Shown: positions 1 to 63,813, numbered from the stretch's first letter. The stretch is DNA of 64,000 nucleotides from an uncultured Gemmatimonadaceae bacterium (GCA_963829055.1 CAWHHI010000006.1:256001-320000), one strand, 5' to 3'. Program-made: numbers and translations. Notes: generated by a model not told the origin, from the sequence alone.

Positions 1-2498
1 GTGTCGGCCAGGGCGCGCAGCGCGATCGTGTCGCCGGTCGGCGCGTACGCATCCGCCGCGAGCGCGTGATGCCAGCAGAAGCCGCGCGCGGCCAAAGACG
101 GCACCGGCAACTGCAGCGTCTCGCCGGGCGGGTGGGCGGGCGCGTCGTATTTGCGCGCCGCAGCCGCGTAGTCGCCTAACGAACGGAGGTTGCTGGCGTG
201 CATCATGTCGGCCTGTCCGATCGCCGTCGGCGACACCGCGACCAGACGATCCAGTGCCAGGTTCGCCGCCCGGAAACGGCCGTGCTCGCGGTCGAGCAGC
301 GTGCGCAGGTCAGTGATCGCCTCGCGCCGGTCGGCCGTCGCACTCGCTTCCATCGCCGCGATCGCCGAGTCGGCGGCGTCGTATCGGCGCGCGATCATCA
401 GCATACGTGCGAGCTCGTCCACCGCCCACGCGTCGCCGCCGGACAACGACACCGCACGCTGCATGAGAGGCAGCGCCGAGTCGGGACGCTGTGTGAAGGA
501 GTACGTCCACGCGAGCGCGCTCCACGCCGCCGGCGCATCCGGCTGCGCGCGGATCCATCGTCGAGCCCAGTCCGCTGCTCCGCGATAATCGCCGCGCACC
601 GTGTGCAGGCTCACGACATTGAAGAATCCCGCGCACTGGGTGCACGGGCCGCTGCCTGCTTTTATCGCCAGCGAGTCGAGCTCCACGGCATGGATGGCGA
701 CGCGCAGGGCCTCGTCGACTTGGCCGTGTCCCGCGAGGATGCCTTCGAGCAGCTGATAGCCCCGCGGGTCACGCGGGTACCGGCGCACCAGCGCGCGGGC
801 CAGCGCCTCACTGCGCTCACGCTCTCCGGCGTAGTTCGCATCGAGTACGTCCTGATCCAACCGATCGAACTCGGTTGCACGATCGGCGTGCCGGCGCAGC
901 GTCTCACGCAAGCGGCGTGTGAGCGCAGTATCGTTGACGCCGACGGCCAGCCCGATTCGGTCCCGCAGCGCGGTGATGAATCCGGAGTCCAGCGCGACAG
1001 CGGCGTCGAGCTCGCTCAGTGCTTCTCTGACCCGACCTGCGCGGCCGGCTTCCTGCGCCTTCATATAGTGCTGATAGGCCTCGACGCTCGATGTCTCGAG
1101 CTCCGCGAGCTGCGCGCCCTGATCTGTCACGTTCGCGGCAGCAAGAATTCGCGCGGCGGCTTCATCGGCGAGAGCGAGTGCGTCCCGTCGCGTCAGCACG
1201 ACGCTCTTCACGAGCTTGCCGGATCTCACGTCGTGCAGCGTGAGGTCGAGCACGAGGTTGTTGCCATCACGGGCGATCGTGCCGCGCACCGCGAGCGTTG
1301 CACCGACGCGCCGCGCGAGATCACTCGCTGTTCCAGCGCCGAGTTGTTCGCCAGACGGACTGCCGCTGCGCACGAGGACAGCACGCACGCGAGCAGGTTG
1401 TACGACATCGACCGCGCTGACTTGAGCGAGCTTCCCGGAAATCATCTCGGGGAGCCCGTCGGCGAGCCATGCAATAGTGGAATCTCCGCCACGCCGCTCC
1501 ATCTCGAATATCGCGATGACCGGCTTGCGGCCGTTGGCGACGACGTCGCTTTCGTCGCCTCGCTCCGCGCGATTGGCGACGGTACGAAACGCGATGACTC
1601 CGATGACGGCGGCCGCGCCGAGCGCACCGAGCACGCGCCAGAGTGTGCGACGCGGGTGCGACGGAGATGGAGGGACCGGCGAAGGAGGAGGCGGTTCCGG
1701 CGCGACCGGCTCGGGTATTGGACTCTCGACGCTTTCGGTCAAGCCCACCGGCACGAGCGTGGCGAGCTGCTCGCGAATCCGCGTCTCCAGATCGCGCACC
1801 ACCGGCGAAGGGGCGACCTCGTAGTCGCGCGCGAGGCGGACGCGTAGCTGGTCGAATTCATCCAGCGCCTGAACCAGCGCTGCCCGCGTGCCCGGTGCCT
1901 TCGTCGCGTTGAGGATGTAGAGCGCGGCGTCTGGAGAGAGCGGGTCGGTTTCGATCCAGCGCGCGGCCAGCGCGTGGCACTCCGGCCAGCGACGGGCGCG
2001 AGCGAGCGACGCGCACTGCTGGTTGCACGCCTGCAGGAACACCGCCTCGAGGCGTCGGCGCTCGCGCGTCAGCCACTGGTCGAACGACGGACTGTCGTCG
2101 ACGTGCACGCCGTCGAGGAACGGGCCGCCATACAGCTCGACGATGCGCGCGAAGTCGCGGGCTTCCGCGGCATCCCCGATCTCGAGTGCATCGACGTCGA
2201 GCGGCGCGTCGGGCGCGAGGGCGACATCCGCGTCGCGCGTGGTGATGGACTGCTGGCCGAGCGCGCGCCGGAGCGACGAGAGCGCGTTGCTGAGCGAGTG
2301 GCGCGCACGTGCCTCCTCCTGCTCGCCCCAGAACAGCTCGATCAGCGTGTCGCGCGCGACGGGCCGCCTGGCCATGGCCAGGACCGCGAGGAGCGCGAGC
2401 TTGCGCCGCCGTTTCGCGAGCGACGCGTCCTCGTCACCGGCAGCTCCACGGAGGGTCGGCCGGCCTAGCGTGACGAGTCGGAAGCGATTGCCCCGCAA
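1..2498 (-). CDS. SARP/BTAD-domain transcriptional regulator with TM segment, TolB-N-like domain and TPRs (3' end outside window)
   Basis: Manual translation: FRLVTLGRPTL...KLALLAVLA...RDTLIELFWGEQEEARARHSLSNALSSLRR...LYGGPFLDG...FDQWL, then Pro-rich linker, hydrophobic segment, AWLADGLPEMI. Missing from the ORF track because there is no stop in the window. Confidence 0.85.
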   Translation of the reverse strand, partial: MRGNRFRLVTLGRPTLRGAAGDEDASLAKRRRKLALLAVLAMARRPVARDTLIELFWGEQEEARARHSLSNALSSLRRALGQQSITTRDADVALAPDAPLDVDALEIGDAAEARDFARIVELYGGPFLDGVHVDDSPSFDQWLTRERRRLEAVFLQACNQQCASLARARRWPECHALAARWIETDPLSPDAALYILNATKAPGTRAALVQALDEFDQLRVRLARDYEVAPSPVVRDLETRIREQLATLVPVGLTESVESPIPEPVAPEPPPPSPVPPSPSHPRRTLWRVLGALGAAAVIGVIAFRTVANRAERGDESDVVANGRKPVIAIFEMERRGGDSTIAWLADGLPEMISGKLAQVSAVDVVQPARVRAVLVRSGSPSGEQLGAGTASDLARRVGATLAVRGTIARDGNNLVLDLTLHDVRSGKLVKSVVLTRRDALALADEAAARILAAANVTDQGAQLAELETSSVEAYQHYMKAQEAGRAGRVREALSELDAAVALDSGFITALRDRIGLAVGVNDTALTRRLRETLRRHADRATEFDRLDQDVLDANYAGERERSEALARALVRRYPRDPRGYQLLEGILAGHGQVDEALRVAIHAVELDSLAIKAGSGPCTQCAGFFNVVSLHTVRGDYRGAADWARRWIRAQPDAPAAWSALAWTYSFTQRPDSALPLMQRAVSLSGGDAWAVDELARMLMIARRYDAADSAIAAMEASATADRREAITDLRTLLDREHGRFRAANLALDRLVAVSPTAIGQADMMHASNLRSLGDYAAAARKYDAPAHPPGETLQLPVPSLAARGFCWHHALAADAYAPTGDTIALRALAD

Positions 2499-3389: not shown

Positions 3390-3428
3390 TGCCAGCCTAA
3401 CGACTTCCACCATACACGAGACACTACC

Positions 3429-4148
3429 ATGACCTACACGACATTTCGCGTGGCGGCGACCATCCTCGCCACGCTCACGACAGTCACCGTTCCCACCACG
3501 GCGCGCGCACAGAGCGCAACCGCCGGCGCCAAGCCGAGCAGCGCGGCCCTTCGGGCAAACGACACGCAACCGACCGGCAGCGACCGCATGCGCGGCTTCA
3601 TGCTCGGAGTGCATTCGATCGCCGCGCCCGGCCTGACGCTCACCGGCGGCGAGATCGACGGCTCGTTCATTACGCAGTTCGGGGCGGGCGCGGGCGTGAC
3701 CGTCGGTTACGGGATCACCCGACTGTTCAGCGCGTTCGCGTCGCTCGACGTCGCGAAGCAGAACACGGCGCCGGACGTCGAGCCGGCCGGCAGCTGGGGG
3801 CTGTCCCACTTCGAGGTCGGTGGACGGGCCAACATCCCGTTAGGCGCGTCGTCCACGGTGCCGTACATCAGCGCGAGCGTAGGCCGGCGGGCGATGGCGG
3901 CGCGATCGACGAACGCCGACGGCGAGCAGTTCGACACGTCGATCAGCGGCCCGATGATCGGAGTGGGAGGCGGTGTCGAGCACTTCTTCTCCCGGTCGAT
4001 GGCCCTCGACGCAGGCATCGGTCTCGGCTACGGGAAGTTCAACCACTTCAAGGCCGGCGAGGAAGAGTACGACCCCAAGGCGAACCCCACCACCAGCATC
4101 CGCATGCGGCTCGGCGTGAACTGGCGGCCGGGTGGCCGGCGCTCGTGA
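3429..4148 (+). CDS. outer-membrane beta-barrel protein, tandem paralogue of the previous gene
   Basis: Shared blocks MRGFxLG, VGYG, SLDxAKQ, HFEVGxRAN, PYxSAS, GVxWRP. Confidence 0.75.
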   Translation: MTYTTFRVAATILATLTTVTVPTTARAQSATAGAKPSSAALRANDTQPTGSDRMRGFMLGVHSIAAPGLTLTGGEIDGSFITQFGAGAGVTVGYGITRLFSAFASLDVAKQNTAPDVEPAGSWGLSHFEVGGRANIPLGASSTVPYISASVGRRAMAARSTNADGEQFDTSISGPMIGVGGGVEHFFSRSMALDAGIGLGYGKFNHFKAGEEEYDPKANPTTSIRMRLGVNWRPGGRRS

Positions 4149-4756: not shown

Positions 4757-5652
4757 GCGCGCGCACACTCTCACCGGTGCCTCACATGATCAACTTCACG
4801 AAAGGCCGGCCCGCGATGCGCATCGGCGCGCTCGGTCGCACGCTCGGGCTGGCGCTCGCCAGCCTCGGGCTGGCGCTGAACACGTCCCGCGCCCAGAGTG
4901 CCGACGAGCAGTCGGCGTACGTGGCGCTCATTTACACGCCGGTCGCGGGGCTTGCGCCACTCCCGCCGGTTGCGGACTCGTTAGGTCGGAAAGGCGCGTC
5001 CGGAGTCAGTCTGCTGGGTCGGCTCGGCCACATGTCACGCAATGGCGGGTTGTCGCTCAACGCGTTCGGCGTCGGCGTCGAGGTTCCGAGAGGCCGAATG
5101 CGACTGGGCGCGACGCTCGCGTACATGTCCGCGAGCTGTGGCGCGGCGTGGGCCGGAGACAGCGATTGCGCGGGCGACATCATGCTTGGTGGCAGCGTGC
5201 GAACGTTGCTCACCAGCCGGGTGGTCGGCCAAGAGGATCCATCTCCGCCGGTGAAGGGGAGACGGGCTCCCGCCCGCGCGTCGAACGAGCCTCGGCTGCT
5301 CGTCGGATTCGATGGGTCCATCGGGTATTCACCGCGCCAGGGCGAAACAGCCATGGCCATCGGCGCCGGGATCCCGACGGCGCTCGCTCTGCAGAGCGGC
5401 ACGGTGCGCATCACACCGTTCATCACGCCGGGGATCGGCTATGGCAGGTTGAGCAACGTCGCGTACTTCGAGGACGAAACGGCGACGTCTCATGGCACGT
5501 TCGCGCTCATGGTCGGTGGCGGACTCGGACTCGAGTTCGGCACGTCGGGTATCGGGGCGAACGTCGGATTTCAGCGAGTACTCAAGGGGCAAGGTGGTAC
5601 CACGCAGCTCGGCATCGGCATGTCGTGGCAGGGCCTGACGTCACCTCGCTGA
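4753..5652 (+). CDS. secreted or outer-membrane hypothetical protein
   Basis: ATGA overlap with previous stop; signal peptide ending SRAQ; glycine/aromatic beta-strands. Confidence 0.6.
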   Translation: MSARTLSPVPHMINFTKGRPAMRIGALGRTLGLALASLGLALNTSRAQSADEQSAYVALIYTPVAGLAPLPPVADSLGRKGASGVSLLGRLGHMSRNGGLSLNAFGVGVEVPRGRMRLGATLAYMSASCGAAWAGDSDCAGDIMLGGSVRTLLTSRVVGQEDPSPPVKGRRAPARASNEPRLLVGFDGSIGYSPRQGETAMAIGAGIPTALALQSGTVRITPFITPGIGYGRLSNVAYFEDETATSHGTFALMVGGGLGLEFGTSGIGANVGFQRVLKGQGGTTQLGIGMSWQGLTSPR

Positions 5653-6083
5653 GCGCCGCGTGCCGACGCCGCGCCGGATCGGTTCTCGTTGCCATCGCGC
5701 TCGCTGGCTGTGGCACCGACCGATCCGTGCCGGCGTCGGCGCCCGGCGCCGAAGCGCCGCCCGACGTCACGGCATCGCTCAGCGATATCGTGGCGTCGAG
5801 CGCGCTGGTGGGACGTCGGGTGCGACTGATCGGGCGATGCCTAACGCAACACGGTTCGTTCGAGCTCGGGCGGCCAGGCGGCGTAGGTATCGTGTGGCAG
5901 CTCGCCGCCGATGGCGTGATGGTGTTCGTCGCAGGTCCACCGCCGCCCGGATGTGCGTCCAGACACACGCCGGTGACCGTGATGATCACCGCGCTCGTGG
6001 TGGAGGATACGCTCCCCGCTATCGGCGACCTTCCAGCGGCACCGCGCCGGTACCTCGTCCGGGTCGAACCGGAGCGTCGCTGA
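5649..6083 (+). CDS. putative lipoprotein
   Basis: VLVAIALAGC lipobox; start codon uncertain. Confidence 0.5.
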   Translation: MSAACRRRAGSVLVAIALAGCGTDRSVPASAPGAEAPPDVTASLSDIVASSALVGRRVRLIGRCLTQHGSFELGRPGGVGIVWQLAADGVMVFVAGPPPPGCASRHTPVTVMITALVVEDTLPAIGDLPAAPRRYLVRVEPERR

Positions 6084-6142: not shown

Positions 6143-7503
6143 CTATTTCACGGCGAACGCCTTGAGCGTGGACGTCACTGTCGCCGGCAGGAATCCGAAG
6201 GCGCCGCCCGCCTTTACGGTACCCGTCGCTGCGCCGCTCTCGAATTTGCCCGTCGACGGCGTGAGCGTAACGCTCCATGAAGCCGTCCCGACGCAACTCG
6301 ACACCGGTCGCGCCGGCACCCTGAACGATCGTGCCGAACTTGCCGTTGACCTTCTGCGTCTGGCTGAGCGCGACGTCGATCGCGACGACTCCCCGATCAG
6401 AGCACGTTGACCGTGCCCGTGACGGTGGCGACGCCCGTCTTTGCGTTCACGGCGACGTTAGGCGCGATCGTGAGTGTCACGCTCGCGAGCCGGTCCAGCT
6501 CGAACGCGCCGATGTCGCAGGTGACGCCCTGCGGGCGCGCCACATAACGCTGATCGGTGTCCTCGCTGCACGCGGTGCCGCCGTCGATCGCCGGACTGCC
6601 GACGCTGAGCGCGAGCGTCTTCGTCGGGCCGCCGTTGCTCGCGATCGGGCGGAGCTTCGGGTTCGCGATCACCATGGCCGCGCCGGTCCCGCACGTGTCG
6701 TCATTCGACAGATTGGTCCCCAGCAGGGTCAGGATGTGCCCATTGAGCGCGCAATTGGGCGTGACCGCAATCGTTGGGTCGTTGTCGACGTTGTCGGCGA
6801 TGATGGAGTTGCGAATGCTCACGTCGCCCGCCACGATGAACAGGCCACCGCCTTCACCGGCCGTGTTGTTCGCGATGGTGGTATTACGGATGATGACGGT
6901 GCGTTGGGACGCGATGCCGCCGCCACGCCTGGCGACATTCCCGGTGATCGTGCTGTTCAGGACCGTCGTCAGGGTTGCTGCGCCGATCGCCTCCAGTCCG
7001 CCACCGTCGCCGGTGGTTTCGTTATTCGCCAGCAGCACGTGGTCCAGGGTCAACGTCCCCTCGTTCAGCACGCCGGCGCCATTGACGAATCGGCCATCGA
7101 CGATCGACAGATTGCGCAGTACGACACTGACACCCGGATCGACACGGAACACGCGGGAGCTCAGATTGCCGCTGATCGTCATCCCCACCTGGAGCGGGCC
7201 TTCGATGGTGACGGACTTCGTGATCGCCATGAACGGCGGATTGACGAGAATCGTCCGGCCGGCGATCGCGGCGTCGAACCGGATCGTGGCGCCGTCTGTC
7301 GCGTCGATGATCGCCTGACGCAGCGACCCGGGACCCGTGTCCTCCGTGTTGGTGACGCTGATGACCGGCGAGAGCAGGTCCTGCGTCGGAGCGGTAGCAC
7401 GTGGAACGATGGCTGTGGGAGCATTGCTGCACCCGACCGAGAGCGCGATGGGGAGCAGCAGCAACCCATGCCTGAATACGCGTACGGGAGATCTAGAGAA
7501 CAC
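6143..7503 (-). CDS. lipoprotein with beta-helix / choice-of-anchor-Q-like domain (two frameshifts near 6405 and 6300)
   Basis: LSVGC lipobox; DTGPGSLRQAI; NSTITGN/NTTIANN repeats; SPAIDGG...DQR...CDIGAFE; reading continues in other frames to ...TLKAFAVK* at 6143. Confidence 0.75.
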
Positions 7504-7550
7504 TGGTGCGGCCTCGAATGATATGGTTGGAGTAGTGCACGCCTAACGCC

Positions 7551-8437
7551 TCAACACCCGATCAACGCGCGAATCCCGGTCGCTGATGCCGTGAGCGCGG
7601 CGGCCTGGGCGGGCGTGAGCTTCTTGCTCGCCTTCCCGTTCACGAGGACGATGAAGTCCTGCATCGCGACGCACGCGCCGGTGACGTCGCCAGTTCCGAG
7701 ATCGGCAAGCGCCAACTGAAGCCGGGACTGAAGGCTCTTGTCCGTTGCGCGATCCAGCCGAAAGCTTGTCACGGTGGCCTCGAGCGCCGTGATGCGACTC
7801 TCCGGCGTGTCGGCGGTGCCGATCAGTGCGAACAGGTTGTCGGCGGGACTGGAACATTCGCGGTCGGGAAGCCCGCGGTCCACGTGACGCCGTCGTTCGT
7901 CGAGAACGCTTGCTGTCCCACGACGGGGCCGAGCCCGCATGCGATCAGGGGTATCGAGCACTGGCTCTCGAGCCAGTAGGTCCCCGCGCCTAACGTGATG
8001 GGCTGCGTGAGGTCGAAGCGGAAATCCTCCTGGCCCGACTGATCGGCTGCTGTCCTGCTCACCGAGGTCAGCGTGAAACGCTGAATAACCGCGCCCGGCT
8101 GTCCCACGCCGTTCGCGCGAAACGCGAAGTTGATCGTCGGGTCGGTAGAGATCGCGGCTACCTTGACGCCGCGAATGACGATGGTCGACACGGTCCACAC
8201 CGTGCGCGTCGGGACGACGAAATCGTTCGCCGGCGTGATCACGATCGCGCCAGGTATTCCTGTCAGCGCGCCGTTCACGGGCGCCAACTCGCTCCAGAGC
8301 GGTTGGATGGCCGCGGCCGTGATCTCGGCTTTCCCGAAGCGGTCAGGTGACCGTGCAGGCGGCGCCGCGACGACGGAATCCGATTGGCAGCCGGCAAGGA
8401 GCGTCGCAGTCACTGCGATCAATACGGTATTTCGCAA
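7551..8437 (-). CDS. lipoprotein with C-terminal FIMAH-like helical domain (frameshift near 7855)
   Basis: LLAGC lipobox in ORF 7823..8536; C-terminus SLQSRLQLA...ACVAMQDFIVLVNGKASKKLTPAQAAAL...IRALIGC in ORF 7551..8198. Confidence 0.65.
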
Positions 8438-8621: not shown

Positions 8622-9600
8622 CTAACGCGGGTCGCCGACGCCGGGATGATAGAGCGAGCGAACTCGCTGCGCGCGAAACACGTAGCCGGGATTCCCCGCC
8701 AAGCGCCACACCACGGTGCCGGCCGCGTCGTACTCCTCCACACCACCGGCGCTTCCGAACGACACGAGCGTGTGGCCGTTAGGCAGCGCCTGCGTGCTGC
8801 CGCCCACCTGCGCCACGAAGCCGGCCGCCGAACCATACGACTCACGCAATCGCACCACGCGGCGCACGGCGTCTATCTCGTAACGCTCGGCCCGGCTTCC
8901 TCGCGGCTCGCCGAGGTTGTCGAGCAGAAGGAGCTGTCCGGCGCCGACGGCTCTCACGCCGTGCTGATGGACGAAGGGCGAGCCATCGACGTTCTCGAAT
9001 GCGAACGCGTTATGCGCGCCGCCCAGGCGCCACATGACGCCACCGATACGCGTGTCGATCTTCGTCACCTCACTCAGGTTTCGAAACGACACGAGCAGAT
9101 TTCCATCGCCGTCCAGATCGAGCGCGTTGCCGTGCGTCCAGTTCGACCACGGCGGCGTCGCGGTCGACTGGATCGAGCACGCGCAGCTCGATCTCGATGA
9201 TGGTCGAAACGCGGACCAGTCGAACAGGACGTCGCCAGTCACGCTTCTATGCTGGACGCTTGTGCCGAGTACGCGCGCGTCCTTCGACTTGCCCTGAGCC
9301 GAGAGGTCGACGGTGCGAACGTCATCGCAGAGGATCCAGTATGAGCCGTCGGGCTCCGCGATCAGGTCGTGCATGCGCGGCTGCAGCCCGCTCGCGCAGC
9401 CGAACGTTCGCGTGATGGCGCCGTCCGGCGCGAGCTCGACCCAGGCGGCAACGTCACCCCCTGAGGATGGCGGGCGCGCTGCGTACCGCCCGTTAGGCTG
9501 CGCCTGGAAGTCGAGCCCCGGCCCGTTCGGAAATCTGTAGTACCAGACGACTCGGCCCGCGTCATCGATGGCCAGGCCGTAGGCGCCGGCAGCGAAGACG
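8622..9600 (-). pseudogene. arylsulfotransferase (ASST)-family gene, 5'-truncated
   Basis: HDL, WTHGNALD...LLVSFRNLS, HQHG, LLLDN, STQALPNGHTLV, FRA motifs. Frame extends to VFAAG...GRVVWYY near 9600, then meets an in-frame TAG with no start or signal peptide. Confidence 0.65.
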
Positions 9601-9713: not shown

Positions 9714-10599
9714 ATGGAGTTCTTCCTCATCCCACTCGTCCTGGCAGCCGGTTACGTGCTCTCGAGCCTTCGCGTGCTCAAGCAGTACGAACGCGGCGTC
9801 GTTTTCTTCCTCGGCAAGTACACGAGCACGAAAGGGCCGGGGCTGGTGTTCATTCCAACCGTGCTCTCGCGGATGAAACGGGTATCGATGCGCGTCGTCG
9901 CGGTCGACATCCCGCCACAGGAGGTAATCACGCGTGACAACATTCTCCGTCACCGTGAACGCGGTGCTCTACTTTCGAGTGTCCGACCCGGCGCTCGCGA
10001 TCATGGAGATTCAGGACTACCTGTACGCCACCGGCCAGCTCGCCCAGACGACGTTACTCTCGGTCCTCGGCCAGGTGGAGCTCGACGAGCTCCTCGCCGA
10101 CCGCCGGAAGGTCAACGAGCTGTTGCGACAGATCATCGACGAGCGGACGGACTTCTGGGGCGTCGAGATCTCCGCGGTGGAGGTGAAGGACGTCCAGCTC
10201 CCGGAAACCATGCGACGCGCCATCGCACGACAGGCCGAGGCTGAGCGCGAGCGGCGAGCGAAAGTCATCAGCGCGCAGGGTGAGCTGCAGGCGTCGGAAA
10301 CGCTCGCCGAGGCGGCGCGCATCATGTCGACCCAGCCGGCGTCGCTTCAACTCCGCTACCTGCAGACGGTCACCGAGATCGCAGCCGAGAACAACTCGAC
10401 GACGATCTTTCCGATCCCGATCGACATGCTGACGTCGTTCTTCCGCCGCGCGAGCGAACCTCAATCCGCGCCGGAGGCCGTTCCGGCGACCACCACGCCA
10501 GCGAGCCTTCCGGCGCCTAACGCCGCTGACGCGGTGTCCCGGACGCCTGACGAGCCGGCGCGCGTGCGCGCCGGGGACGTGACGCTGGCGGACAAGTAA
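9714..10599 (+). CDS. SPFH/band 7 (slipin, stomatin-like) protein (frameshift near 9945)
   Basis: [55 protein letters not shown]. Confidence 0.9.
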
Positions 10600-56144: not shown

Positions 56145-56465
56145 TCAGCCGGCGAACTGCCTCACGAGCGCGATCGCTCCGGCGACGAACGTGACACCGA
56201 GGTAGCCGACCACGAGAGCAGGGCGCTTGAGCACACACCGGCTCTCGCGCAGCCCGCCGCGAATCGCGCGCACGTAGGCCCACAGGCCGAGTGCGCTCAT
56301 GAGCATCACGCACGCCGGCGGTCCGAGGACCCACGCGATGAGCGCGACAGTCGTCATCGCGCAGAATCGCACCGGGTCGAAGCCCGTCGTGCGACCGGGA
56401 GTCGCCGCTGGCGGCCTAACGCCGGCGGCGGCGCGTACGCTGGGGGTCGGGGTTGGCTGCGGCAT
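56145..56465 (-). CDS. small three-TM membrane protein (in frame with the radical SAM as assembled)
   Basis: ATG at 56465 within a TGATG junction; FDPVRFC...AY...SRCVLK...YL. Confidence 0.65.
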   Translation of the reverse strand: MPQPTPTPSVRAAAGVRPPAATPGRTTGFDPVRFCAMTTVALIAWVLGPPACVMLMSALGLWAYVRAIRGGLRESRCVLKRPALVVGYLGVTFVAGAIALVRQFAG

Positions 56466-58044
56466 CAGTCGGCACCGATTGGCTGCGGCGGCCCGTGCGG
56501 CGCGCGCCGCCCGCGCGACCAGCTCCGACGGCTTCATCTGGGAGAGGGGTGACCATGCCTGCACGGCGCAGAAGGGAACGCACTGGTGCGCGTCGCCGTC
56601 CTGCGTCCCGACGTGGACGCAGCACTGCACCAGACGCTCCTCGATCATGGTGTTGATGTCCATGAAGGGCTTGATGGTGATGCGCTTGATGCGCTCCGAG
56701 ACCAGCTTGCGGAAGCCGCTCCGGTCGCCGAGCATCGCCTGGCCAGCGAGCCGCACCAGCGTGCTGAGGCCGAGGTCGCACGTCTCGCACACGTCCCGAA
56801 AGATCTGCGCGAGCGATGGATGCGTGAGCGAGCTCCGCTCACTGAACAGCCCGAGCAGCGCCTCCTTCACCAACCCGCGAAGCTGCTTCGTGATCTGCGC
56901 GTCGGCGATGCGGTTGGCAACGAGGTCGAGGTGCTGCTTCAGCGTGTCTTCCCCCACGAGGCTGAGGAGCGAGCGCCACTCACCGGCGTCGGTGCGGAGC
57001 AGGTAGCCGATGCTACAGCAGTGTGGATGCGAGCAGGGGAGTGCCGTGAGGTCGCGCCAGGTGACGAGCCCGTTCGTCTGTGGGCCGAGTCGCGCGAGGA
57101 CGCCACCATGCGTTAGGCGGTCCGTGGGGTCGAGCGTGAGTGATCGCCCCGACGTGAACTGCGGCTGGATCGACACGCCACCGACGAAGGGCGTCTCGAG
57201 CATGTACTGGATCACGTCGCCGATCTCGTCGTCGTTGACGCCGAGGGACGCCGTCATCGTCAGCGTCGTGAACACGCCGGCTGCGCTCAGGCGCTCGATC
57301 GCCTCGCGTTTGACGCGGCGCAGGTCGGCGCCGCGGTGGGCGCGGTGCGTCTCCAGGCGGAAGCCGTCGAACTGGAAGTACATCTCGATGCGCGTGTTGT
57401 GGCGTTCGAAGAACGAGACGAGTTGATCGTTGCGCGCGATCTGGATGCCGTTGGTGTTGATGACGAGCCGCTGGATGTCGCGCTCGATCAGCGCCTCGAG
57501 GAGCGGAATGAGGTCGGGGTGGATCGTCGGCTCGCCGCCGCTGATCATCAGCACGTCGAGTCGGCCGTTCTCTCGCTCCAGGCGCGCGTCGACGTTCGCG
57601 AGCACCTGCTCCACCGGAACGAACCCGTGCAGGCTCGGCGACGAGTCGGCGAAGCAGGTCGGGCAGGTGAGGTTGCAGGCCGCGGTCACGTCCTCGAGCA
57701 GGATGCAGGTGTGCTGCGTCTGCATCTCGCCCAGCCCCCGCGCGTAGACCAGCGGGACGGGGTCGAAGTTGCCCGGCGTGTCGGGGATGTGGACCTTCGT
57801 CGGCGCCGTCCACTGCTCCAGCCAGCGCAGGATCTCGGGCTGCTCGTCGTACAGCGTCGTGATGCGACCGTGGTCGGGGCAGCCGCGCACGAGCCACGCC
57901 TTCCCGTCGCGCTCCGCGATGTAGCCGGACAGACGTCGCACGTTCGGCGAGGTTCTGCTCTGGCGACTCGCGGTGGCATTCGGGGCAGAACGCGGTGACG
58001 TAGCGCATGACGCGTTCGTCGCGCAGTGGCATTCCGACCGGCAT
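56465..58044 (-). CDS. radical SAM enzyme, Tes/GDGT-MAS (MJ0619)-like architecture (frameshift near 57940)
   Basis: CPEC...CPDHG; CNLTCPTC; SGGEPT; TNG; YFQFDG; PCSHPHC; QCCVH...VPFC. Confidence 0.82.
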
Positions 58045-58068
58045 GATGTCTCTGGGCCTCGGGTGGCG

Positions 58069-58879
58069 TTAGGCGGGTACGGCGCCGGCAAGCGTCTCGC
58101 GCTCACCGCGCCGGCGTCGGATGAAGTACGCGACGAGCGCGACCACACCCGGAAGCACGGTGAGTTGCGATCCACTCAGGCCCAGAGCCATCTCCGGACT
58201 ACCGCGGGTGAACTCGACGAAAAAGCGGAAGACGGCGTAGGCGAGCAGGAAGGCCTTGAAGACGTCGCCCTCCGACATCCACGGCGCTGGCAGCGCGCGT
58301 CGATTCGCGACGCGGAAGAGCACCCAGGCGGCGATTCCAAGGAACGCGGCCTCGTACAGGAAGGAGGGGTGCATCGCGAGGCCGCTCGTGCATGCGGCGC
58401 AGTTGCCGATCCGCGCCGCGGCGTCGGGCGGGACCCGCACGCCCCAGGGCAGCGTCGTTACCGTCCCTGGGCGCTCGGCCAGAAAGCAGCCGATGCGTCC
58501 GATTGCCATGCCGAGCGCGGTACCTGGAATGAGCAAATCGCCCGTCTGGCGGCGGTAGCCGATGAGTCGTTTCGTGACCACGACTCCCGCATACGCGCCG
58601 GCGAGTCCGGCAAGCAGACTCTTACCTCCATACGCGAGGAACCCGGGGAGCGAGGGGTCGCGTGCGTCCAGCAAATACCGGAAGACGAGACCATAACGCG
58701 CGAGGATCGCGGCGCCTACCAGCCCTCCCGCTATCACGAGAAGGAAATCCTGATCGGCGCGTCCGGCGCGCCTCGCGATCCGCCACGAAGTCACGAGCGC
58801 GACCGCGATCCCGAGCGCGACGAACACCGCGTGGGAGTAGATGACGTAACGCGCCCACGTGCAGGAGGACCGGTCGCAT
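58069..58879 (-). CDS. Lgt-family (prolipoprotein diacylglyceryl transferase-like) paralogue (frameshift near 58850)
   Basis: MRPVLLHVG.YVIYSH; GRIGCFL; LPWG; HPSFLYE; YAVFRFFVEFTR. Confidence 0.85.
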
Positions 58880-59186
58880 GCGCTGAGCGGCGGGAAGAGG
58901 AAACAGCTGAGGCGAATATGCAGCGAGCCCCTCACAGCGCAAGCACCGGCGTTCGGCGAGGCCTAACGTCGCCAGGCTACGAACCCGAGCGCGCCATTGA
59001 GCCACCGTCGGCTTGCGGAGCTCGGATACAGAAATAGATTGCGTTTTGTACAGATACGAGGCGGGGCCACATGGCGCGAAAGAAAGCGAGTTCAGCGCGC
59101 GGGTCGAAACCGGCTCGCCACGGCAAGTCACAGACAGCGTCCTATCCGACACCGGGGGAATCGAGCTTCGTGAAAGAAGGCTCCCT

Positions 59187-59525: not shown

Positions 59526-59607
59526 CAGTCCCCGGCGCAAGACCCGACCAAGGTAGAGGTGCAGCGGCCGCCCGATCCCAGGGTACTCGCCCTCGACAAT
59601 CGTTAGG

Positions 59608-60300
59608 TCACGCGGTCGGAAATCCGAGCGCGCCGTTGAGCCACCGCACGAGCGGCAGCAACCCCTGGAACTCCTTCGCGAGCAGCGCCGGGAGCTTCGC
59701 GTCCGTGACCTGCGCGTCGGTGACCGGGCGGCCGCTCACGAACGACTGATAGCGAAGCCACTTCGCCGCCGGATGGTCCTCGGCGAACCCGCGCGGCATG
59801 CGCTTGAGCACTGCCTCATCGTCGAGCCCACCGTACTTCTTCGTGAGCCCGCGCGCTATGCGGTCGAAGCCAACCGGGTCATGGGCGATCGCGTCGCGCA
59901 GCCGGTTGAGTTGCGGCCGAGGAGGCATCCAGAGCCCACCGCCGACGAACGACTTCCCGGGCTCGAGGTGAAAGTAGAAGCCGGCGCTTCCGGCGTCCGC
60001 TTCGCTGCCAACGCGCGACGTCGCACGGCGGTGGTGGAACCAGCACGCCGCGTGGGTCTTGTACGGCGACTTGTCGCTCGAGAAGCGAATGTCGCGATTG
60101 ATGCGGAACATCGACCGCTTCGGGTCGCCGCCGATCTCGGGCGCGAATTTCGTGAACCGCGCGTTCATCTCGCCAATGAGATCGCGCATTGGCTCGCGCA
60201 CCTCGCCCTCGTAGTCGGCGCGGTGCGCCTCGAACCATTCCTTGTTGTTGTTCTTTGCGAGGCCGCGGAAGAACCGCAGCGCGGCCGGTGTGAATGGCAT
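59608..60300 (-). CDS. DUF2461 / TIGR02453-family protein
   Basis: LAKNNNKEWF; FRINRDIRFSSDKSPYK; LKRMPRGF..DHP. Confidence 0.9.
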   Translation of the reverse strand: MPFTPAALRFFRGLAKNNNKEWFEAHRADYEGEVREPMRDLIGEMNARFTKFAPEIGGDPKRSMFRINRDIRFSSDKSPYKTHAACWFHHRRATSRVGSEADAGSAGFYFHLEPGKSFVGGGLWMPPRPQLNRLRDAIAHDPVGFDRIARGLTKKYGGLDDEAVLKRMPRGFAEDHPAAKWLRYQSFVSGRPVTDAQVTDAKLPALLAKEFQGLLPLVRWLNGALGFPTA

Positions 60301-60563: not shown

Positions 60564-61109
60564 ATGTCGCGTATGGGTCTCTACACACCGGTCGTGCTCG
60601 GATTGGCGGTGTCGGTCGCCGCCCCTCGCATCCTCGTCGCCCAACGTACCGCCTCAGCGCGGCAAGGAGGGGCGGCAGCAACCGGGCCACTGACCGATGT
60701 CTCTGTGACGTTAGGCGGGCAGACCGTCACGGGGCGCGTCGACGCCAACTGCCACGTGGATGAGCGCGCGACGCCAAGCAACACGCGTGCGTACTTCGTG
60801 GCGATGTACCCGTGGTTCGGTCAACGCGTCGCGGCGGACAAGCCGCAGTGGCGCTTTGATCTGGAGATCCGCCGTGGTGCCACGTCGGAAGCGTCGGATC
60901 AGTTCGTGTTCTCGTTCCTCGACGGCCAGAAATCGGGAACGATTCAAACGGTGTCAGGTTCCCAGCGGATGGGGAGCGGCACCGTCCGGGTCACCCGCCA
61001 CGGCAACGGCGCCCGGTTCGACGTCGATGGGCGAACCAAGGAAGGCGACCCGGTCCGCGCGACGATCGACTGCTCGGCGTTCCAGAAGAGCGAGGGCGCG
61101 GGCGGATAA
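60564..61109 (+). CDS. secreted hypothetical protein
   Basis: AGGAGG RBS, signal peptide, two Cys. Confidence 0.65.
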   Translation: MSRMGLYTPVVLGLAVSVAAPRILVAQRTASARQGGAAATGPLTDVSVTLGGQTVTGRVDANCHVDERATPSNTRAYFVAMYPWFGQRVAADKPQWRFDLEIRRGATSEASDQFVFSFLDGQKSGTIQTVSGSQRMGSGTVRVTRHGNGARFDVDGRTKEGDPVRATIDCSAFQKSEGAGG

Positions 61110-61133: not shown

Positions 61134-63813
61134 CTACCGCATCGCCGTGATGGGATCGACGCGTGTCGCTCGCCGCACCGGAACCATGAGCGCCACCGTC
61201 GCCGCAACGAGCAGCATCAGCACCGCCAGGCCGAGTGCGAGCGGATCGAACTGCGCGACGCCGTAGAGCATCCCGCGCACCAGCCGCGAGACCACCACGA
61301 CGCCACCCGCCCCGACGACCAGTCCGAGCACCATCCACGCGCCGCCCTGCCGCAGGACGAGCCGAGCGATGGCGCCGCGGCTCGAGCCTAACGCCATGCG
61401 CACGCCGAACTCCCGCTCGCGCGCCGCCGCCATGGCCGCGAACATCGCATACACACCCACTGACGCGAGCAGTAGCGCCAGCGCCACCGAACGCGGTCAT
61501 GAGCACGACAGGGAGACGCCGTCCCGCGAGCCCGTCCGAGATCAGCGAGCGAAGCGTCGCCGGATTGTTGAGCGGCAACCGCGGGTCGATCGACGCCAGC
61601 GTCTGCTGCACCGGCTTCACCAGCGCCATCGGGTCACCGCGGGTGCGGATCACGAAGATCGGGCCGTTCCACGGATTGACGCGGTTCGACATGTACATCG
61701 TGATCTCCGGATCCGGCCGCGCGGGGTCATTGCGCTCGTTGCCGACGACGCCGACCACGGTGAACACCGGCGTCTCCGGGCTCGCGTCGAGACGGACACG
61801 TCCGCCCACCGCGCCGCCGTTAGGCCACAGGCGCCGCGCCAGTGACTCGTTGATGATGAGCGTGGGCGGCCCGTCGGCGAGGTCCTGCGGGCCGAAGGTC
61901 CGGCCTTCCTTGAGTGGGATCCCCAGCGTACGGAAATAGTCATCGGACACCGTCGTGTACAACGCGAGCGGGACAGCATCGCTCGGTGGTGGCGGCGCAC
62001 CTTCGACGAAAATCGAGTTGTGATTGCCCACCCGTGTCGGGACCTCACCGGTACTCGCCACGGAGATGACGCCGGGGAGTGCTCGCACGCGCTCCTCGAA
62101 CTGCGACACGAATTCCGAACGCGACGCGTTCGTCGTGTACGTGCCCGGCGGGAGCTGCACCGCGACCGTCAGCACGTCGTCGGGGTTGAAGCCTAACGGG
62201 GTAGCAGTCATGGCCCAGAGGCTGCGAGCCAGGAGACCCGCACCGGCGAGCAGGCTGAGACAGAGCGCGATCTGCCCCGCCACGAGGATCCCGCGCAGGC
62301 GCCGTGAGCGCGTGCTCTCGCTCGTGCCGCGTCCCTCATCGCGGAGCGTGTCCTGCGGGTCGGCGCGGCTCACCGCCAGCGCCGGGGTGACGCCGAAGGC
62401 GAGCCCGGTGCCGAGTGCCACGAGCGCCGTGACGAGCAGCGCGCCTCCGTCGAGCGACAGCTCGGCGTAGGGCGGCAGCGCGCGCAGCGCGAGCCCGCGC
62501 AGCACCTTGAGGCCGAGCACCGCCAGGAGGATGCCGGCGGCTCCGCCGGCGAGCGCGAGCACCACGCTCTCCGTGAGCAGCTGCCTGACGACTCTCCCGC
62601 GATTCGCGCCTAACGCGACACGCACCGCGAACTCGCGCCGGCGAGTGAGCCCGCGTGACAGGAGCGCTCCCGCGAGGTTCGCGCAGGTGATCAGGAGCAC
62701 GAGTCCCGCGCTCGCCAGCAGCACGAGCAGGGCTTTCCGGGTGTCGCCGACCATCGACTCCCGGATCGGCATCGCGACAATGCGTGCGCTCCCGTTGAAC
62801 TGCGGGTACTCGCGCGCCAGGTCCTTGCCGATGCGTGACAGGTCCTCCCGCGCCGCCTCCACGGTGATGCCCGGCTTCAACCGGCCGACGAACCCGTAGT
62901 TCTGCTGCCGACGCAGTCGCACCGGGTCACGCATCGCCCCGTGGAAGTCGAGCGCGAAGTAGAAGTCGATCTCGCCCGGCATGGGCGCGACGAACCCGCG
63001 CGGCAGGACGCCGATGATCGTGCGGGTGATCCCGTTCACGCGCACCGCGCGCCCGATGATGCCGGGGTCGCCGCCGAACAGCCGCTGCCACGTGGCGTAC
63101 GTGGCGATGATGTTGTACGCCGTATCGGCCGCGGCGTCTTCAGCGCGAAACACGCGACCGCGGGCGGCCGGTACGCCGAGGGTCGGGAACAGTGCGGGCT
63201 CGACCCACGCGACCCGCGCGACGATCGGGTTGCCATCGCCGTTGTACACCGCCTCACGCGGCCGGCCCTCGAACGCCGCCACCTGCGTGAACGATCGCTG
63301 ACGCGCGGCAATGTCCATGATCGTGCCGGCGCTCACGGGACCGCGGTCGTTCGAGCCGTCGATCCGGCGGCTGTACCCGCGCATGACGCGGTCGGCGTCG
63401 GCGTACGGCAGCGCATCGAGGAGCACCGACTTCACGACGCCGAACACCGCGGCGTTGGCGCCGATGCCTAACGCCAACGTGAGGACGGCGAGCAGCGTGA
63501 ACAGCGGCGCGCGGAGCAGGGAGCGGACGCCGAACCTGAGATCCTGTCGGAGATCGTCGAACCATTCGGCGCGCCGCTCGAGCGCCGCGCGTTCCCGGTC
63601 TTCCGCACTCATGGCCATGCTCCAGTGGTTGGTGTCCCCGAACCGCCGATGCGCTTCCGCGCGCGCCGCCTCCGGCGTCGAGCCGCGCGCCACCAACTCG
63701 GCGACCCGCATCTCCAGATGAAACGCGACCTCCTCGTCCACGTCCGCCTCGATCCGCGGGCGCCTGAGGGCGAGGCGGAACGCGCGTCGCGTGCCGTTAG
63801 GCAGCTCTGCCAT
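61134..63813 (-). CDS. ADOP-family duplicated MacB/FtsX permease (frameshift near 61480)
   Basis: EEVAFHLEM; QDLRFGVR; LALGIGANAAVF; LLITCANLA; REFAVRVALGA; VDPITAMR. Confidence 0.9.

What the first reader, a model, noticed from the sequence alone, without database searches (positions are those of the whole stretch)
174..63802. Highly iterated non-palindromic octamer GCCTAACG on both strands, about once per kb
Seen: a manual count gives about 55 exact copies (about 30 GCCTAACG, 25 CGTTAGGC) and about 21 more with the CCTAAC core and one flanking mismatch. Examples: 174, 3395, 3838, 5839, 6456, 7541, 9491, 16571, 26771, 33930, 49114, 49264, 63466, 63795. Base composition at about 69% GC predicts only 2-3 exact copies. 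Most lie inside CDSs in several frames, supplying otherwise rare TTA/CTA Leu or CCT-AAC codons, and some supply TAA stops (26774, 31501, 33933, 58069). Known: dispersed motifs with no strand bias at this density include Neisseria DUS, Pasteurellaceae USS and cyanobacterial HIP1, whereas Chi and KOPS are strand-polarised. Inference: this is a DNA-level signal kept at the expense of codon preference, such as an uptake sequence, a nucleoid/SMC-type binding site or a modification mark. I do not know of it being described.
Basis: partly seen in the sequence, partly recalled or inferred. Interest (0 to 1): 0.85.

Follow-up and report, generated by a model that had tools for sequence, protein, structure and literature searches.

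The report
Hyper-abundant GCCTAACG genome word
This soil bacterium has written one eight-letter DNA word through its genes about once per 1.5 kb against its own codon habits, much as Haemophilus and Neisseria tag their DNA for uptake; the same word fills a second, unrelated soil phylum and spells the core of integron cassette sites, but what reads it is still unknown.

Summary
The whole genome holds 5004 copies in 7.78 Mb. The excess survives codon-aware nulls: 3018 copies in called ORFs against 141 or 67.

It is not an assembly artefact, a repeat element, Chi or attC sites. The flanks are unconserved, stop-codon phases are avoided, there is no replication polarity, and fragmented relatives' assemblies also carry it. 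Sites turn over by point substitution yet are kept more often than other 8-mers.

The word is rich in 38 of 151 sampled Gemmatimonadaceae and 4 of 81 sampled Chthoniobacterales, and in one tailed phage. A scan of 185,579 species hit only these two groups. The second phylum uses a strict 9-mer dialect, GCCTAACGA.

My best reading is a DNA-uptake-type self tag, at about 0.4. ComEC, DprA and a type IV pilus are present but do not discriminate.

This scan had already noted the same word in at least seven other genomes.

The parts
174..181 (+). exact copy GCCTAACG
3395..3402 (+). exact copy
3838..3845 (-). exact copy
5839..5846 (+). exact copy
6456..6463 (-). exact copy
7541..7548 (+). exact copy
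7988..7995 (+). exact copy
8777..8784 (-). exact copy
9491..9498 (-). exact copy
10515..10522 (+). exact copy
15349..15356 (+). exact copy
16571..16578 (-). exact copy; its TAA ends a frameshifted piece of an outer-membrane protein gene
17571..17578 (-). exact copy
19748..19755 (+). exact copy
21462..21469 (+). exact copy
22315..22322 (-). exact copy
23921..23928 (+). exact copy
25573..25580 (+). exact copy
26771..26778 (+). exact copy; its TAA is the stop of ORF 26243-26773
28359..28366 (-). exact copy
30653..30660 (+). exact copy
30983..30990 (-). exact copy
31498..31505 (+). exact copy
31966..31973 (-). exact copy
33656..33663 (+). exact copy
33930..33937 (+). exact copy
34913..34920 (+). 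exact copy
36633..36640 (+). exact copy
38325..38332 (-). exact copy
40429..40436 (-). exact copy
42291..42298 (-). exact copy
42618..42625 (+). exact copy
42751..42758 (+). exact copy
43581..43588 (-). exact copy
44656..44663 (-). exact copy
45711..45718 (+). exact copy
48701..48708 (-). exact copy
49114..49121 (-). exact copy
49264..49271 (-). exact copy
50533..50540 (-). exact copy
51265..51272 (-). exact copy
51744..51751 (+). exact copy
54580..54587 (+). exact copy; shared at the aligned position with G001 and G005, not with G003 or G004
55496..55503 (+). exact copy; shared at the aligned position with G001 and G005
56414..56421 (+). exact copy
57111..57118 (-). exact copy
58067..58074 (-). 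exact copy; its TAA is the stop of the lgt ORF 58072-58962
58961..58968 (+). exact copy
60709..60716 (-). exact copy
61386..61393 (+). exact copy
61818..61825 (-). exact copy
62191..62198 (+). exact copy
62608..62615 (+). exact copy
63466..63473 (+). exact copy
63795..63802 (-). exact copy
14257..14264 (-). one-off copy GCCTAACA
20197..20204 (-). one-off copy GCCTAACA
23481..23488 (-). one-off copy GCCTAACA
31154..31161 (-). one-off copy GCCTAACA
34273..34280 (+). one-off copy GCCTAACA
53028..53035 (-). one-off copy GCCTAACA
4979..4986 (-). one-off copy ACCTAACG
11686..11693 (-). one-off copy ACCTAACG
13392..13399 (+). one-off copy ACCTAACG
18491..18498 (+). one-off copy ACCTAACG
18953..18960 (+). 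one-off copy CCCTAACG
28618..28625 (-). one-off copy ACCTAACG
28975..28982 (+). one-off copy CCCTAACG
29203..29210 (-). one-off copy CCCTAACG
39544..39551 (+). one-off copy CCCTAACG
44135..44142 (+). one-off copy ACCTAACG
44848..44855 (+). one-off copy CCCTAACG
47270..47277 (+). one-off copy ACCTAACG
53738..53745 (-). one-off copy CCCTAACG
54013..54020 (-). one-off copy ACCTAACG
59601..59608 (-). one-off copy ACCTAACG

Best explanation
GCCTAACG is a genuine genome-wide DNA word. It is read as double-stranded DNA in either orientation by a sequence-specific factor that has not been identified. It is built up and kept by a pressure that acts on the DNA rather than on the proteins. The most likely mechanism is the one known for DNA uptake sequences (USS and DUS). 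In that mechanism the DNA-import machinery prefers fragments that carry the word, imported kin DNA recombines into the chromosome, and any substitution that creates or improves a word is over-transmitted (molecular drive) wherever the coding cost is bearable. What is shown here: the word is real, hyper-abundant, strand-symmetric, limited by coding cost, turned over by point substitution, kept above background, densest in the most native genes, and present in dialects.
For: Abundance: 5004 copies in 7.78 Mb, the top 8-mer by observed/expected, and 55 in the window against 1.08 expected.
Codon-aware nulls: 3018 copies in called ORFs against 121-164 (synonymous shuffle) and 56-78 (codon-order shuffle) over 10 replicates each. 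1178 of 2744 TTA codons lie in the word.
Strictness: it is a strict 8-mer, and no flank position carries more than 0.13 bits.
Graded, reader-like tolerance at positions 1, 3 and 8: ACCTAACG 827, GCATAACG 583, GCCTAACA 435. By contrast, variants at positions 2 and 7 count only 9-58, and the transition product GCTTAACG counts 24.
Coding context: all four open frames are used. Only 6 of 1677 sites with concordant flanking frames sit in a stop phase. 279 ORF ends use the word's TAA or TAG.
Strand symmetry: 2457 against 2547 overall, and 298 against 367 leading versus lagging on contig C16 (summed).
Turnover: sister species carry one-off words at aligned sites, yet 18 of 53 G000 sites are kept against about 6.9 expected from all 8-mers in the same alignments.
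Nativeness: density rises from 0.31-0.36 per kb in the most atypical gene decile to 0.83 per kb in the most typical. The word is absent from foreign chimeric blocks in the same assembly.
Machinery: ComEC in 31 of 31 relatives, DprA and secretin in 5 of 5, and a pilin-PilMNO-PilQ cluster in G000.
Dialects: G000 has no preference at +9, whereas Chthoniobacterales use a strict GCCTAACGA (703 of 749 copies).
Against: No uptake experiment exists, and no cultured strain was examined.
The competence genes I found are equally present in word-poor relatives, so they do not discriminate.
No ComP homologue was found in any of the 8 word-rich genomes of the 31-genome set.
The pilin next to polA (150 of 151 genomes) and an unknown protein of the pilus cluster (138 of 151) occur regardless of word density.
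Identical words in two phyla are not expected from lineage-specific uptake receptors.
A tailed phage carries the word at host density. Uptake drive explains that only if the phage is temperate, and the integrase match is weak (24.2 bits against a cut-off of 27.1).
Unlike USS, every frame of this word forces rare codons.
The deficit of short gaps in G000 (215 observed against 611 expected below 200 bp) is not seen in the 491 kb sampled from G033 (203 against 202).
Inverted pairs of the terminator type typical of DUS are rare (9 pairs within 50 bp).
Confidence: 0.4

Rival explanations
1. A HIP1-like word. It would be a binding or structuring site for a nucleoid or chromosome-organising protein, kept by direct selection on chromosome function rather than by uptake drive.
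For: Its over-representation (21-45 fold) and its conservation above background match what is reported for HIP1: 15-300 fold, conserved between genomes, function unknown (abstract of PMC5861425). Strand symmetry and presence inside genes fit. The mild evenness per gene fits (1434 genes with one copy against 1341 Poisson). Tandem microclusters in G033 would suit cooperative binding.
Against: No candidate protein is known. A nucleoid site need not be a strict 8-9-mer. The patchy distribution, even within genera (g56: G150 and G250 rich, G208 poor), is odd for core chromosome architecture. I did not test the long-range periodicity reported for HIP1.
Confidence: 0.2
2. A self versus non-self tag read by a nuclease or defence-type system. 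DNA that carries the word would be spared or processed differently, as Chi does for RecBCD and AddAB, so chromosomes and resident phages are selected to carry it.
For: A phage with terminase, portal, capsid and tape-measure genes carries 29 copies in 46 kb, against 8 for the reversed control word. The determinant behaves like an accessory trait, patchy within family and genus and present in two phyla. Tandem copies in G033 would raise recognition probability.
Against: There is no replication-strand polarity. RecC was found in 0 of 5 genomes. AddAB-type PDDEXK_1 nuclease domains are present in word-poor G208 and not found in word-rich G150. The over-representation is far above what I recall for Chi. 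Only one of the 12 viral loci from the two-copy scan was word-rich.
Confidence: 0.12
3. A half-site for an integron-type or Xer-type tyrosine recombinase. The word is the attC/attI core (R box) that IntI recognises, spread through the genome as landing or decoy sites.
For: GCCTAAC and GTTAGGC fit RYYYAAC and GTTRRRY, the inverse core and core sites of attC (passages of PMC3053210). In word-poor relatives the only dense clusters of the word are same-strand integron arrays in which each attC starts with GCCTAACG. G000's own integron array does the same. attC sites with GCCTAACGA...GTTAGGC also occur in unrelated contigs (L085, L088).
Against: IntI over its cut-off occurs in 18 of 31 relatives, rich and poor alike, and is not found intact in rich G002, G004 and G014. 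The flanks show no attC palindrome. attC-like pairs are not in excess: 37 against 25-38 in control arrangements. Thousands of recombination cores inside genes should be harmful.
Confidence: 0.1
4. A neutral by-product of a sequence-specific repair or modification process, such as very-short-patch repair tied to a methyltransferase, that converts near-cognate words to the cognate word.
For: This was proposed historically for HIP1 (abstracts of PMC4390886, seen in the listing, and PMC5861425). The two commonest one-off variants, ACCTAACG and GCCTAACA, are G-to-A changes at the two ends.
Against: Aligned one-off words differ from the motif by several kinds of change at several positions, which a single mismatch-specific repair cannot produce. 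Vsr was found only in G007 (poor) and G033 (rich), and not in G000, G014 or G063. Sites are conserved above background. Density tracks gene nativeness. Methyltransferases were not surveyed.
Confidence: 0.08
5. A technical artefact: a systematic basecalling or consensus error at a modified site in one assembly type.
For: G000 carries indel errors and split genes. It has 20 contigs at 85.9% completeness.
Against: Same-genus assemblies of 260-1170 contigs carry 2501-5112 copies. Hits in the collection scan come from several assembler naming styles. Contigs of 20 public runs from 16 studies hold 40-64% of the sampled 31-mers of window 42001-52000. None of the 40 listed differences in four laid runs falls in any of the 21 copies in window 42001-62000, although 771 further differences were not shown. 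Stop phases are avoided. Foreign blocks in the same assembly lack the word.
Confidence: 0.01

Closest known systems
Uptake signal sequences (USS) of Pasteurellaceae
   Same: A short non-palindromic core present in hundreds to thousands of copies: 1,471 in H. influenzae, 65% of them in ORFs (table heads of PMC2817400). Both strands are used. Most copies are single and inside genes in tolerated frames. The word is lacking from genes without homologues in relatives, and it accumulates by point change.
   Different: The phyla are different. Every frame here needs rare codons. The same word occurs in two phyla. There is no evidence of uptake bias, and the receptor is unknown (the USS receptor is also unknown, as far as I recall).
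DNA uptake sequences (DUS) of Neisseriaceae, read by the minor pilin ComP
   Same: Similar density, strand symmetry, and lineage 'dialects': an 8-mer in G000 against a 9-mer GCCTAACGA in Chthoniobacterales.
   Different: No ComP_DUS match in the 8 word-rich genomes of the 31-genome set. Inverted terminator pairs are rare here, whereas about half of DUES lie in terminators (abstract of 10.1101/2025.10.24.684340).
HIP1 (GCGATCGC) of cyanobacteria
   Same: A hyper-abundant octamer, conserved between genomes, written into genes, and of unknown function after decades of study (abstract of PMC5861425).
   Different: HIP1 is a palindrome that contains methyltransferase sites and is confined to one phylum. 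Here the word is asymmetric, and no methyltransferase link was examined.
Integron attC core and inverse core sites (GTTRRRY / RYYYAAC)
   Same: The word spells one exact instance of both boxes, and it is the actual first 8 bases of attC sites in this order's integrons.
   Different: More than 99% of genomic copies lack the attC palindrome and partner box, and the word does not co-distribute with IntI.
Chi sites (RecBCD/AddAB)
   Same: An over-represented asymmetric 5-8-mer that phages can also carry.
   Different: There is no strand polarity, RecC was not found, AddAB-type nuclease domains do not co-distribute with the word, and the enrichment is much stronger.

Membership tests
DNA uptake enhancing sequences (USS/DUS) | Short word at roughly one copy per 1-1.5 kb, equal on both strands | tested here: met
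   5004 copies in 7.78 Mb, 2457 against 2547. No polarity across the C16 terminus.
DNA uptake enhancing sequences (USS/DUS) | Excess not explained by codon or amino-acid usage | tested here: met
   3018 observed against 141 and 67 in two codon-aware shuffles.
DNA uptake enhancing sequences (USS/DUS) | Shared by related species, turned over by point substitution, with dialects | tested here: met
DNA uptake enhancing sequences (USS/DUS) | Depleted from foreign or atypical genes | tested here: met
   0.31-0.36 against 0.83 copies per kb across deciles of gene typicality. Foreign chimeric blocks hold 0-1 copies in 128 kb.
DNA uptake enhancing sequences (USS/DUS) | Competence machinery present (ComEC, DprA, secretin/type IV pilus) | tested here: met
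   It is also present in word-poor relatives, so this is necessary but not discriminating.
DNA uptake enhancing sequences (USS/DUS) | Preferential uptake of DNA that carries the word | not testable with these tools
   Needs an uptake or transformation assay.
DUS specifically | ComP minor-pilin receptor | tested here: not met
   PF16732 gave 0 matches in G000-G006 and G014.
DUS specifically | Frequent inverted pairs in terminators | tested here: not met
   4 +- and 5 -+ neighbour pairs within 50 bp among 4984 gaps.
HIP1-like hyper-abundant words | Palindromic octamer containing methyltransferase sites | tested here: not met
   The word is not a palindrome (sequence itself). Methyltransferases were not surveyed.
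HIP1-like hyper-abundant words | Sites conserved between genomes above background | tested here: met
   18 of 53 kept against about 6.9 expected. The sample is small and the relatives are not independent.
Chi | Orientation bias toward the replication leading strand | tested here: not met
   298 against 367 on C16, which matches the gene-orientation effect.
Chi | Co-occurrence with RecBCD or AddAB | tested here: not met
   RecC in 0 of 5 genomes. PDDEXK_1 found in poor G208 and not in rich G150.
Integron attC sites | RYYYAAC ... GTTRRRY imperfect palindrome of 57-141 bp | tested here: not met
   Flanks are unconserved. 37 attC-like pairs against 25-38 in control arrangements. Only about 10 copies, next to intI on C20, are real attC sites.
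Integron attC sites | Co-distribution with the integron integrase | tested here: not met
   TIGR02249 over its cut-off in 18 of 31 genomes, both rich and poor.
REP/MITE-type dispersed repeats | Conserved sequence beyond the core | tested here: not met
   At most 0.13 bits at any of 30 flank positions.

The most novel reading that the evidence does not exclude
The word is an acquisition signal tuned to the conserved core of integron attC sites. Under this reading, cells of two unrelated soil phyla evolved, or exchanged, a DNA-import or capture specificity for GCCTAACG(A), which is the first bases of the gene cassettes circulating in their community. Cassette DNA would then be imported preferentially, and molecular drive would have written the same word through the cells' own chromosomes and resident phages as a side effect. 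This would tie natural transformation to integron cassette traffic, and it would explain why the identical word appears in Gemmatimonadaceae and Chthoniobacterales.
Probability: 0.08. Interest if true: 0.95.

Novelty: new variant of a known kind. Interest (0 to 1): 0.78.

Why it matters
According to the latest comparative study I saw (abstract of 10.1101/2025.10.24.684340), sequence-specific DNA uptake tags are known from only two proteobacterial families. HIP1 remains unexplained. A third strongly iterated word has three unusual features: it sits in abundant uncultured soil lineages, it is shared by two phyla, and it spells the integron recombination core.

If it is an uptake tag, it would show that kin-biased DNA exchange operates in soil bacteria and would give a handle on it: a testable 8-9-mer. 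It might also link transformation with cassette capture.

There are practical uses too. The word is a sharp marker for spotting chimeric or mis-binned DNA in these MAGs. Here it exposed four foreign contig ends.

Tried and rejected
Basecalling artefact. I took this seriously after seeing split genes. I rejected it on four grounds: stop-phase avoidance, fragmented relatives' assemblies that also carry the word, public run contigs and word-free foreign blocks in the same assembly.

Motif-free 30-50 kb blocks as genomic islands. Rejected: they carry a second set of housekeeping genes at about 46-59% identity to copies elsewhere in the genome, so they are chimeric contig ends.

Dialect in a word-poor genus. 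100 kb of G007 shows no hyper-abundant 8-mer, and neither does 40 kb of G010.

Viral scans. Two three-copy patterns found 0 stretches, but this test has low sensitivity. A two-copy 9-mer scan gave 12 loci. Only L092 was word-rich. L085 and L088 carry attC-like sites, and the rest are other repeats or plain pairs.

Search for a horizontally shared reader. ORFs from 211 kb of assorted Verrucomicrobiota loci and from 491 kb of G033 were compared with G000. The median identity was 41.6%. The best pairs were a syntenic four-gene operon whose sizes suggest succinate dehydrogenase or fumarate reductase (52-76%; I did not annotate it) and matches to chimeric ends. No outlier DNA-binding gene emerged. 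This covers only about 15% of G033.

Phyletic tests with no correlation to word density: IntI, ComEC, ComP_DUS, secretin, DprA, RecC, Vsr, PDDEXK_1 (83), the pilin next to polA and an unknown 340-aa protein of the pilus cluster (97).

attC-like pairing genome-wide: no excess.

Paper searches. The top-20 listings for the literal word showed only primers or other incidental uses. 'Gemmatimonad' + 'uptake sequence' returned 0 papers. 'DNA uptake sequence' + 'Verrucomicrobia' returned 3 irrelevant papers. PMC2843746 mentions neither the word nor these taxa.

One fetch from genomes was largely wasted on a wrong guess of contig numbering.
Full report
OBSERVATION. The window (G000:C6:256001-320000) holds 55 exact copies of GCCTAACG. 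Dinucleotide shuffles gave a mean of 1.08 and a maximum of 4. The 21 'core plus one flank mismatch' copies are also exact: 6 GCCTAACA, and 9 ACCTAACG plus 6 CCCTAACG. Window GC is 0.64-0.70. About 41 of the 55 copies lie in my crude ORF calls.

GENOME SCALE. The assembly has 7,784,024 bases in 20 contigs at 66.7% GC. It holds 2457 + 2547 = 5004 copies, and the word is the top 8-mer by observed/expected. Every contig carries it at 0.48-0.80 copies per kb.

It is a strict 8-mer. None of 30 flank positions carries more than 0.13 bits, so it is not the core of a longer repeat. One-off variants show a graded, reader-like tolerance rather than mutational decay. Positions 1, 3 and 8 tolerate particular bases: ACCTAACG 827, CCCTAACG 428, GCATAACG 583, GCCTAACA 435. 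Variants at positions 2 and 7 count only 9-58, and the transition product GCTTAACG counts 24.

CODING CONTEXT. I used a home-made ORF caller that gave 5016 ORFs and only 68% coverage. It is crude and is hampered by indel errors in the assembly. With it, the word sits in all four open frames:
- xCG-TTA-GGC: 1176
- xxG-CCT-AAC-G: 835
- xGC-CTA-ACG: 567
- xxC-GTT-AGG-C: 415

Only 33 copies sit in stop phases, and 1974 fall outside or at the edge of my calls. All four frames use rare codons: TTA is 1.8% and CTA 1.9% of Leu, CCT 7.7% of Pro, and AGG 3.7% of Arg. 1178 of 2744 TTA codons lie in the word.

The excess survives two codon-aware nulls. Called ORFs hold 3018 copies, against 121-164 after synonymous shuffling within genes and 56-78 after codon-order shuffling, over 10 replicates each.

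A gene-call-independent test used the coding potential of the 120-bp flanks. It found 1677 sites with the same frame on both sides, and only 6 of these were in a stop phase. The word also supplies the two commonest stop contexts: 152 GCC-TAA-CG and 127 CGT-TAG-GC among about 5009 ORF ends. So the word is placed wherever translation tolerates it.

NOT AN ARTEFACT. Several window genes are split: DUF5691, an outer-membrane barrel protein, and DUF5682. Public contigs insert a base behind 52067. Five results argue against an artefact:
- Same-genus genomes of 260-1170 contigs carry 2501-5112 copies.
- Contigs of 20 public runs from 16 studies hold 40-64% of the sampled 31-mers of window 42001-52000.
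- Four runs laid on 42001-62000 cover all 30 bins. None of the 40 listed differences falls in any of the 21 copies there, although 771 differences were not shown.
- Stop phases are avoided.
- Foreign DNA inside the same assembly lacks the word (see the next section).

WORD-FREE BLOCKS ARE CHIMERIC ENDS. The only long gaps are C6:5.4-55 kb, C6:591.8-623.3 kb and C11:0-46.8 kb. They encode housekeeping genes such as AroC, TrpB/A, DAHP synthase, FtsK, FolD and GreA. For seven single-copy genes a second copy at 46-59% identity lies elsewhere in the genome. C19:0-10 kb is similar: GC 0.55, 0 copies, and its best matches are to Verrucomicrobiota ORFs. These are mis-joined contig ends, not islands.

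STRAND AND SPACING. 50-kb bins show no replication polarity. Across the skew switch at about 550 kb on C16, the word is 298 leading against 367 lagging (my sums). That matches the slight gene-orientation effect of 1402 same-sense against 1591 antisense copies.

Gaps shorter than 200 bp are depleted (215 observed against 611 expected), and gaps of 500-1500 bp are in excess (2187 against 1725). Per-gene counts are near Poisson, with a small excess of single copies. Inverted pairs within 50 bp number only 9. Pairs arranged like an attC site (GCCTAAC, then 40-130 bases, then GTTAGGC) number 37, against 25-38 in the control arrangements.

EVOLUTION. In alignments with same-genus species, motif sites face one-off words such as CGTTGGGC, CGTCAGGC, CGTTCGGC, GCCGAACG and ACCTAACG, with no indels. 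Some sites are shared by G000, G001 and G005. Sites therefore arise and decay by point substitution.

Over about 64.6 kb of aligned DNA, 18 of 53 G000 sites are intact in the relative. About 6.9 would be expected from the identity of all 8-mers in the same alignments. The sample is small, and sites are counted once per relative, so the relatives are not independent.

Density rises steadily with gene typicality, from 0.31-0.36 per kb in the lowest decile of GC3 or codon typicality to 0.83 per kb in the highest. This parallels the published finding that genes without homologues in relatives lack uptake sequences (abstract of PMC2817400).

DISTRIBUTION. I call a genome 'rich' when it holds at least three times the count of the reversed control word. 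These are my hand counts from the tool tables.
- Nearest 31 genomes: 8 are rich (all 7 of the genus, plus G014). Most other genera hold 5-60 copies, well below the control.
- Family sample: 38 of 151 genomes are rich, spread over about 21 of 77 genera. Density forms a continuum up to 1.3 per kb. There are within-genus contrasts: in g56, G150 has 3896 and G250 has 4141 copies against 66 in G208; in g23, G187 and G235 are rich and G117 is not. This tally includes the unpublished genomes G013, G135, G136 and G234, none of which is rich.
- All species: a scan of one genome per 185,579 species for three spaced copies returned 39 stretches. 16 came from Gemmatimonadaceae or Gemmatimonadota MAGs and 23 from Chthoniobacterales or Verrucomicrobiae MAGs. 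Nothing else was hit.
- Verrucomicrobiota: three such genomes hold 3510-5186 copies in 3.2-4.3 Mb. 4 of 81 sampled genomes of that order are rich.

The Verrucomicrobiota word is a strict 9-mer, GCCTAACGA: 703 of 749 copies in 491 kb of G033. It shows direct tandem microclusters with a period of 7 or 10-13 bp (55 direct against 23 inverted neighbour pairs within 60 bp), and it shows no short-range depletion. G000 has no preference at that ninth position (A is 0.25), and a 58.6-kb sample of G014 is intermediate. A 100-kb sample of the word-poor G007 has no alternative hyper-abundant 8-mer.

PHAGE. One IMG/VR contig (46 kb, GC 0.675) encodes small and large terminase, portal, scaffold, major head protein, tape measure and RecT. 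It carries 29 copies (8 + and 21 -) against 8 for the control word. Only a weak integrase match, below the Pfam cut-off, hints that it is temperate.

INTEGRON LINK. In word-poor relatives the word occurs almost only as same-strand clusters spaced about 550 bp apart, with conserved downstream sequence. Examples are G021:C95, with 27 copies in the 30 kb fetched (L001 + L002), of which 26 are on one strand, and G019:C3, with 8 of 8 on one strand. These are integron cassette arrays whose attC sites begin with GCCTAACG.

The word is an exact instance of the attC inverse core RYYYAAC, and its complement is an instance of the core GTTRRRY (passages of PMC3053210). G000 has its own intI (C20:208041-208958, just at the cut-off), with an adjacent array of attC sites that start with GCCTAACGC.

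However, IntI passes its cut-off in 18 of 31 relatives regardless of word density. Genomic copies also lack attC structure. The identity is too exact to dismiss, but its meaning is open.

The following occur in rich and poor genomes alike: ComEC in 31 of 31, DprA and secretin in 5 of 5 genomes from both phyla, a pilin-PilM-PilN-PilO-PilQ cluster in G000, the pilin next to polA (150 of 151) and an unknown protein of the pilus cluster (138 of 151).

ComP_DUS was not found in any rich genome of the 31-genome set. RecC was not found in 5 of 5 genomes. AddAB-type nuclease domains are in poor G208 but were not found in rich G150. Vsr is in G007 and G033 only. Cross-phylum protein comparison over about 15% of G033 gave no outlier.

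INTERPRETATION. The combination of features matches uptake sequences better than any other known class: a strict short word, thousands of copies, strand symmetry, placement limited by coding cost, point-mutational turnover with above-background retention, enrichment in native genes, and dialects. A working DNA-import set is present.

Against this stand the missing receptor, the cross-phylum identity, the phage copies and the lack of any experiment. A HIP1-like structural role, a self-tag read by a nuclease, and a recombinase half-site all remain possible. Chi, REP/MITE, attC sites proper and an artefact are excluded.

LITERATURE. I found no paper describing this word. For the literal-word searches I saw only the top-20 listings. 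I read the abstracts of PMC5861425, PMC2817400 and 10.1101/2025.10.24.684340, passages of PMC3053210, and a term search of PMC2843746.

EARLIER NOTES OF THIS SCAN. The scan had already noted the same word on at least seven other genomes, including the cross-phylum spread, the integron match and the presence in viruses. I reached the integron match independently. I re-tested the cross-phylum and virus claims here. I did not test the plasmid claim.

Noticed in passing
G000 C6:5,440-55,037; C6:591,808-623,330; C11:1-46,789; C19:1-10,000 (outside the window): Word-free contig ends that carry a second set of single-copy housekeeping genes at about 46-59% identity to copies elsewhere. C19's end has GC 0.55 and Verrucomicrobiota-like genes. 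These are probably chimeric joins in the assembly. The word works as a marker for such joins.
   Followed up: yes
window 50409-52023; 14962-17853; about 52067: Genes split by frameshifts: DUF5691 lies in two frames, and an outer-membrane barrel gene has an out-of-frame middle part. Contigs of two public runs insert a G behind 52067. These are assembly indel errors rather than biology, and they probably lower the completeness estimate.
   Followed up: partly
window 47570-47730: An intergenic inverted repeat (GTCATTCCGAGCG ... CGCTCGGAATGAC, the right arm duplicated). Summed contig depth there is 87-311 in all four metagenome runs, against about 5-20 elsewhere, with many indels and loose ends. 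It looks like a REP-like element common in these communities. There is no tRNA or Rfam match in the window.
   Followed up: partly
G000 C20:197,000-209,000 (outside the window): The genome's own integron: intI at 208,041-208,958 (-), scoring 265.7 bits, just at the cut-off. A palindrome GTTAGGCGGC...GCCGCCTAAC lies beside it, and a same-strand run of attC-like sites begins with GCCTAACGC.
   Followed up: partly
L001/L002 (G021:C95:1-30,000), L003 (G019:C3), L004 (G021:C80): Integron cassette arrays in word-poor relatives, with 7-27 cassettes of about 500-700 bp. Each attC starts with GCCTAACG followed by a conserved GATCGCGCTTAAGCTGCGGCGC-like stretch.
   Followed up: partly
L121-L123 (IMG/VR contig, 46,090 bp): A siphovirus-like phage at GC 0.675 with 29 copies of the word. 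It has a pentapeptide-repeat protein, RecT and Gp157 next to each other, and a weak tyrosine-recombinase match at 41,099-42,481.
   Followed up: partly
G033:C2 about 24,133-24,160 and 198,864-198,900; 163,361-163,390: The word expands like a microsatellite in Chthoniobacterales: four overlapping copies at a period of 7 (CGTTAGGCGTTAGGC...) and triplets at a period of 10.
   Followed up: no
window 47715-55445: A conserved cluster of a VWA/CoxE-like protein, DUF5691 and DUF5682, all of unknown function, on the + strand.
   Followed up: no
L083/L091 and L090 (low-GC IMG/VR contigs): Repeated intergenic blocks that start with GCCTAACGA and are followed by a conserved purine-rich, ribosome-binding-like stretch before successive small genes. 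They are unrelated to attC structure and to the word-rich hosts.
   Followed up: no
L152:8826-9212 (G000 C3:516,826-517,212): A 128-aa type IV pilin gene directly downstream of polA on the same strand. It is conserved full-length at 46-84% identity in 150 of 151 sampled family members.
   Followed up: partly
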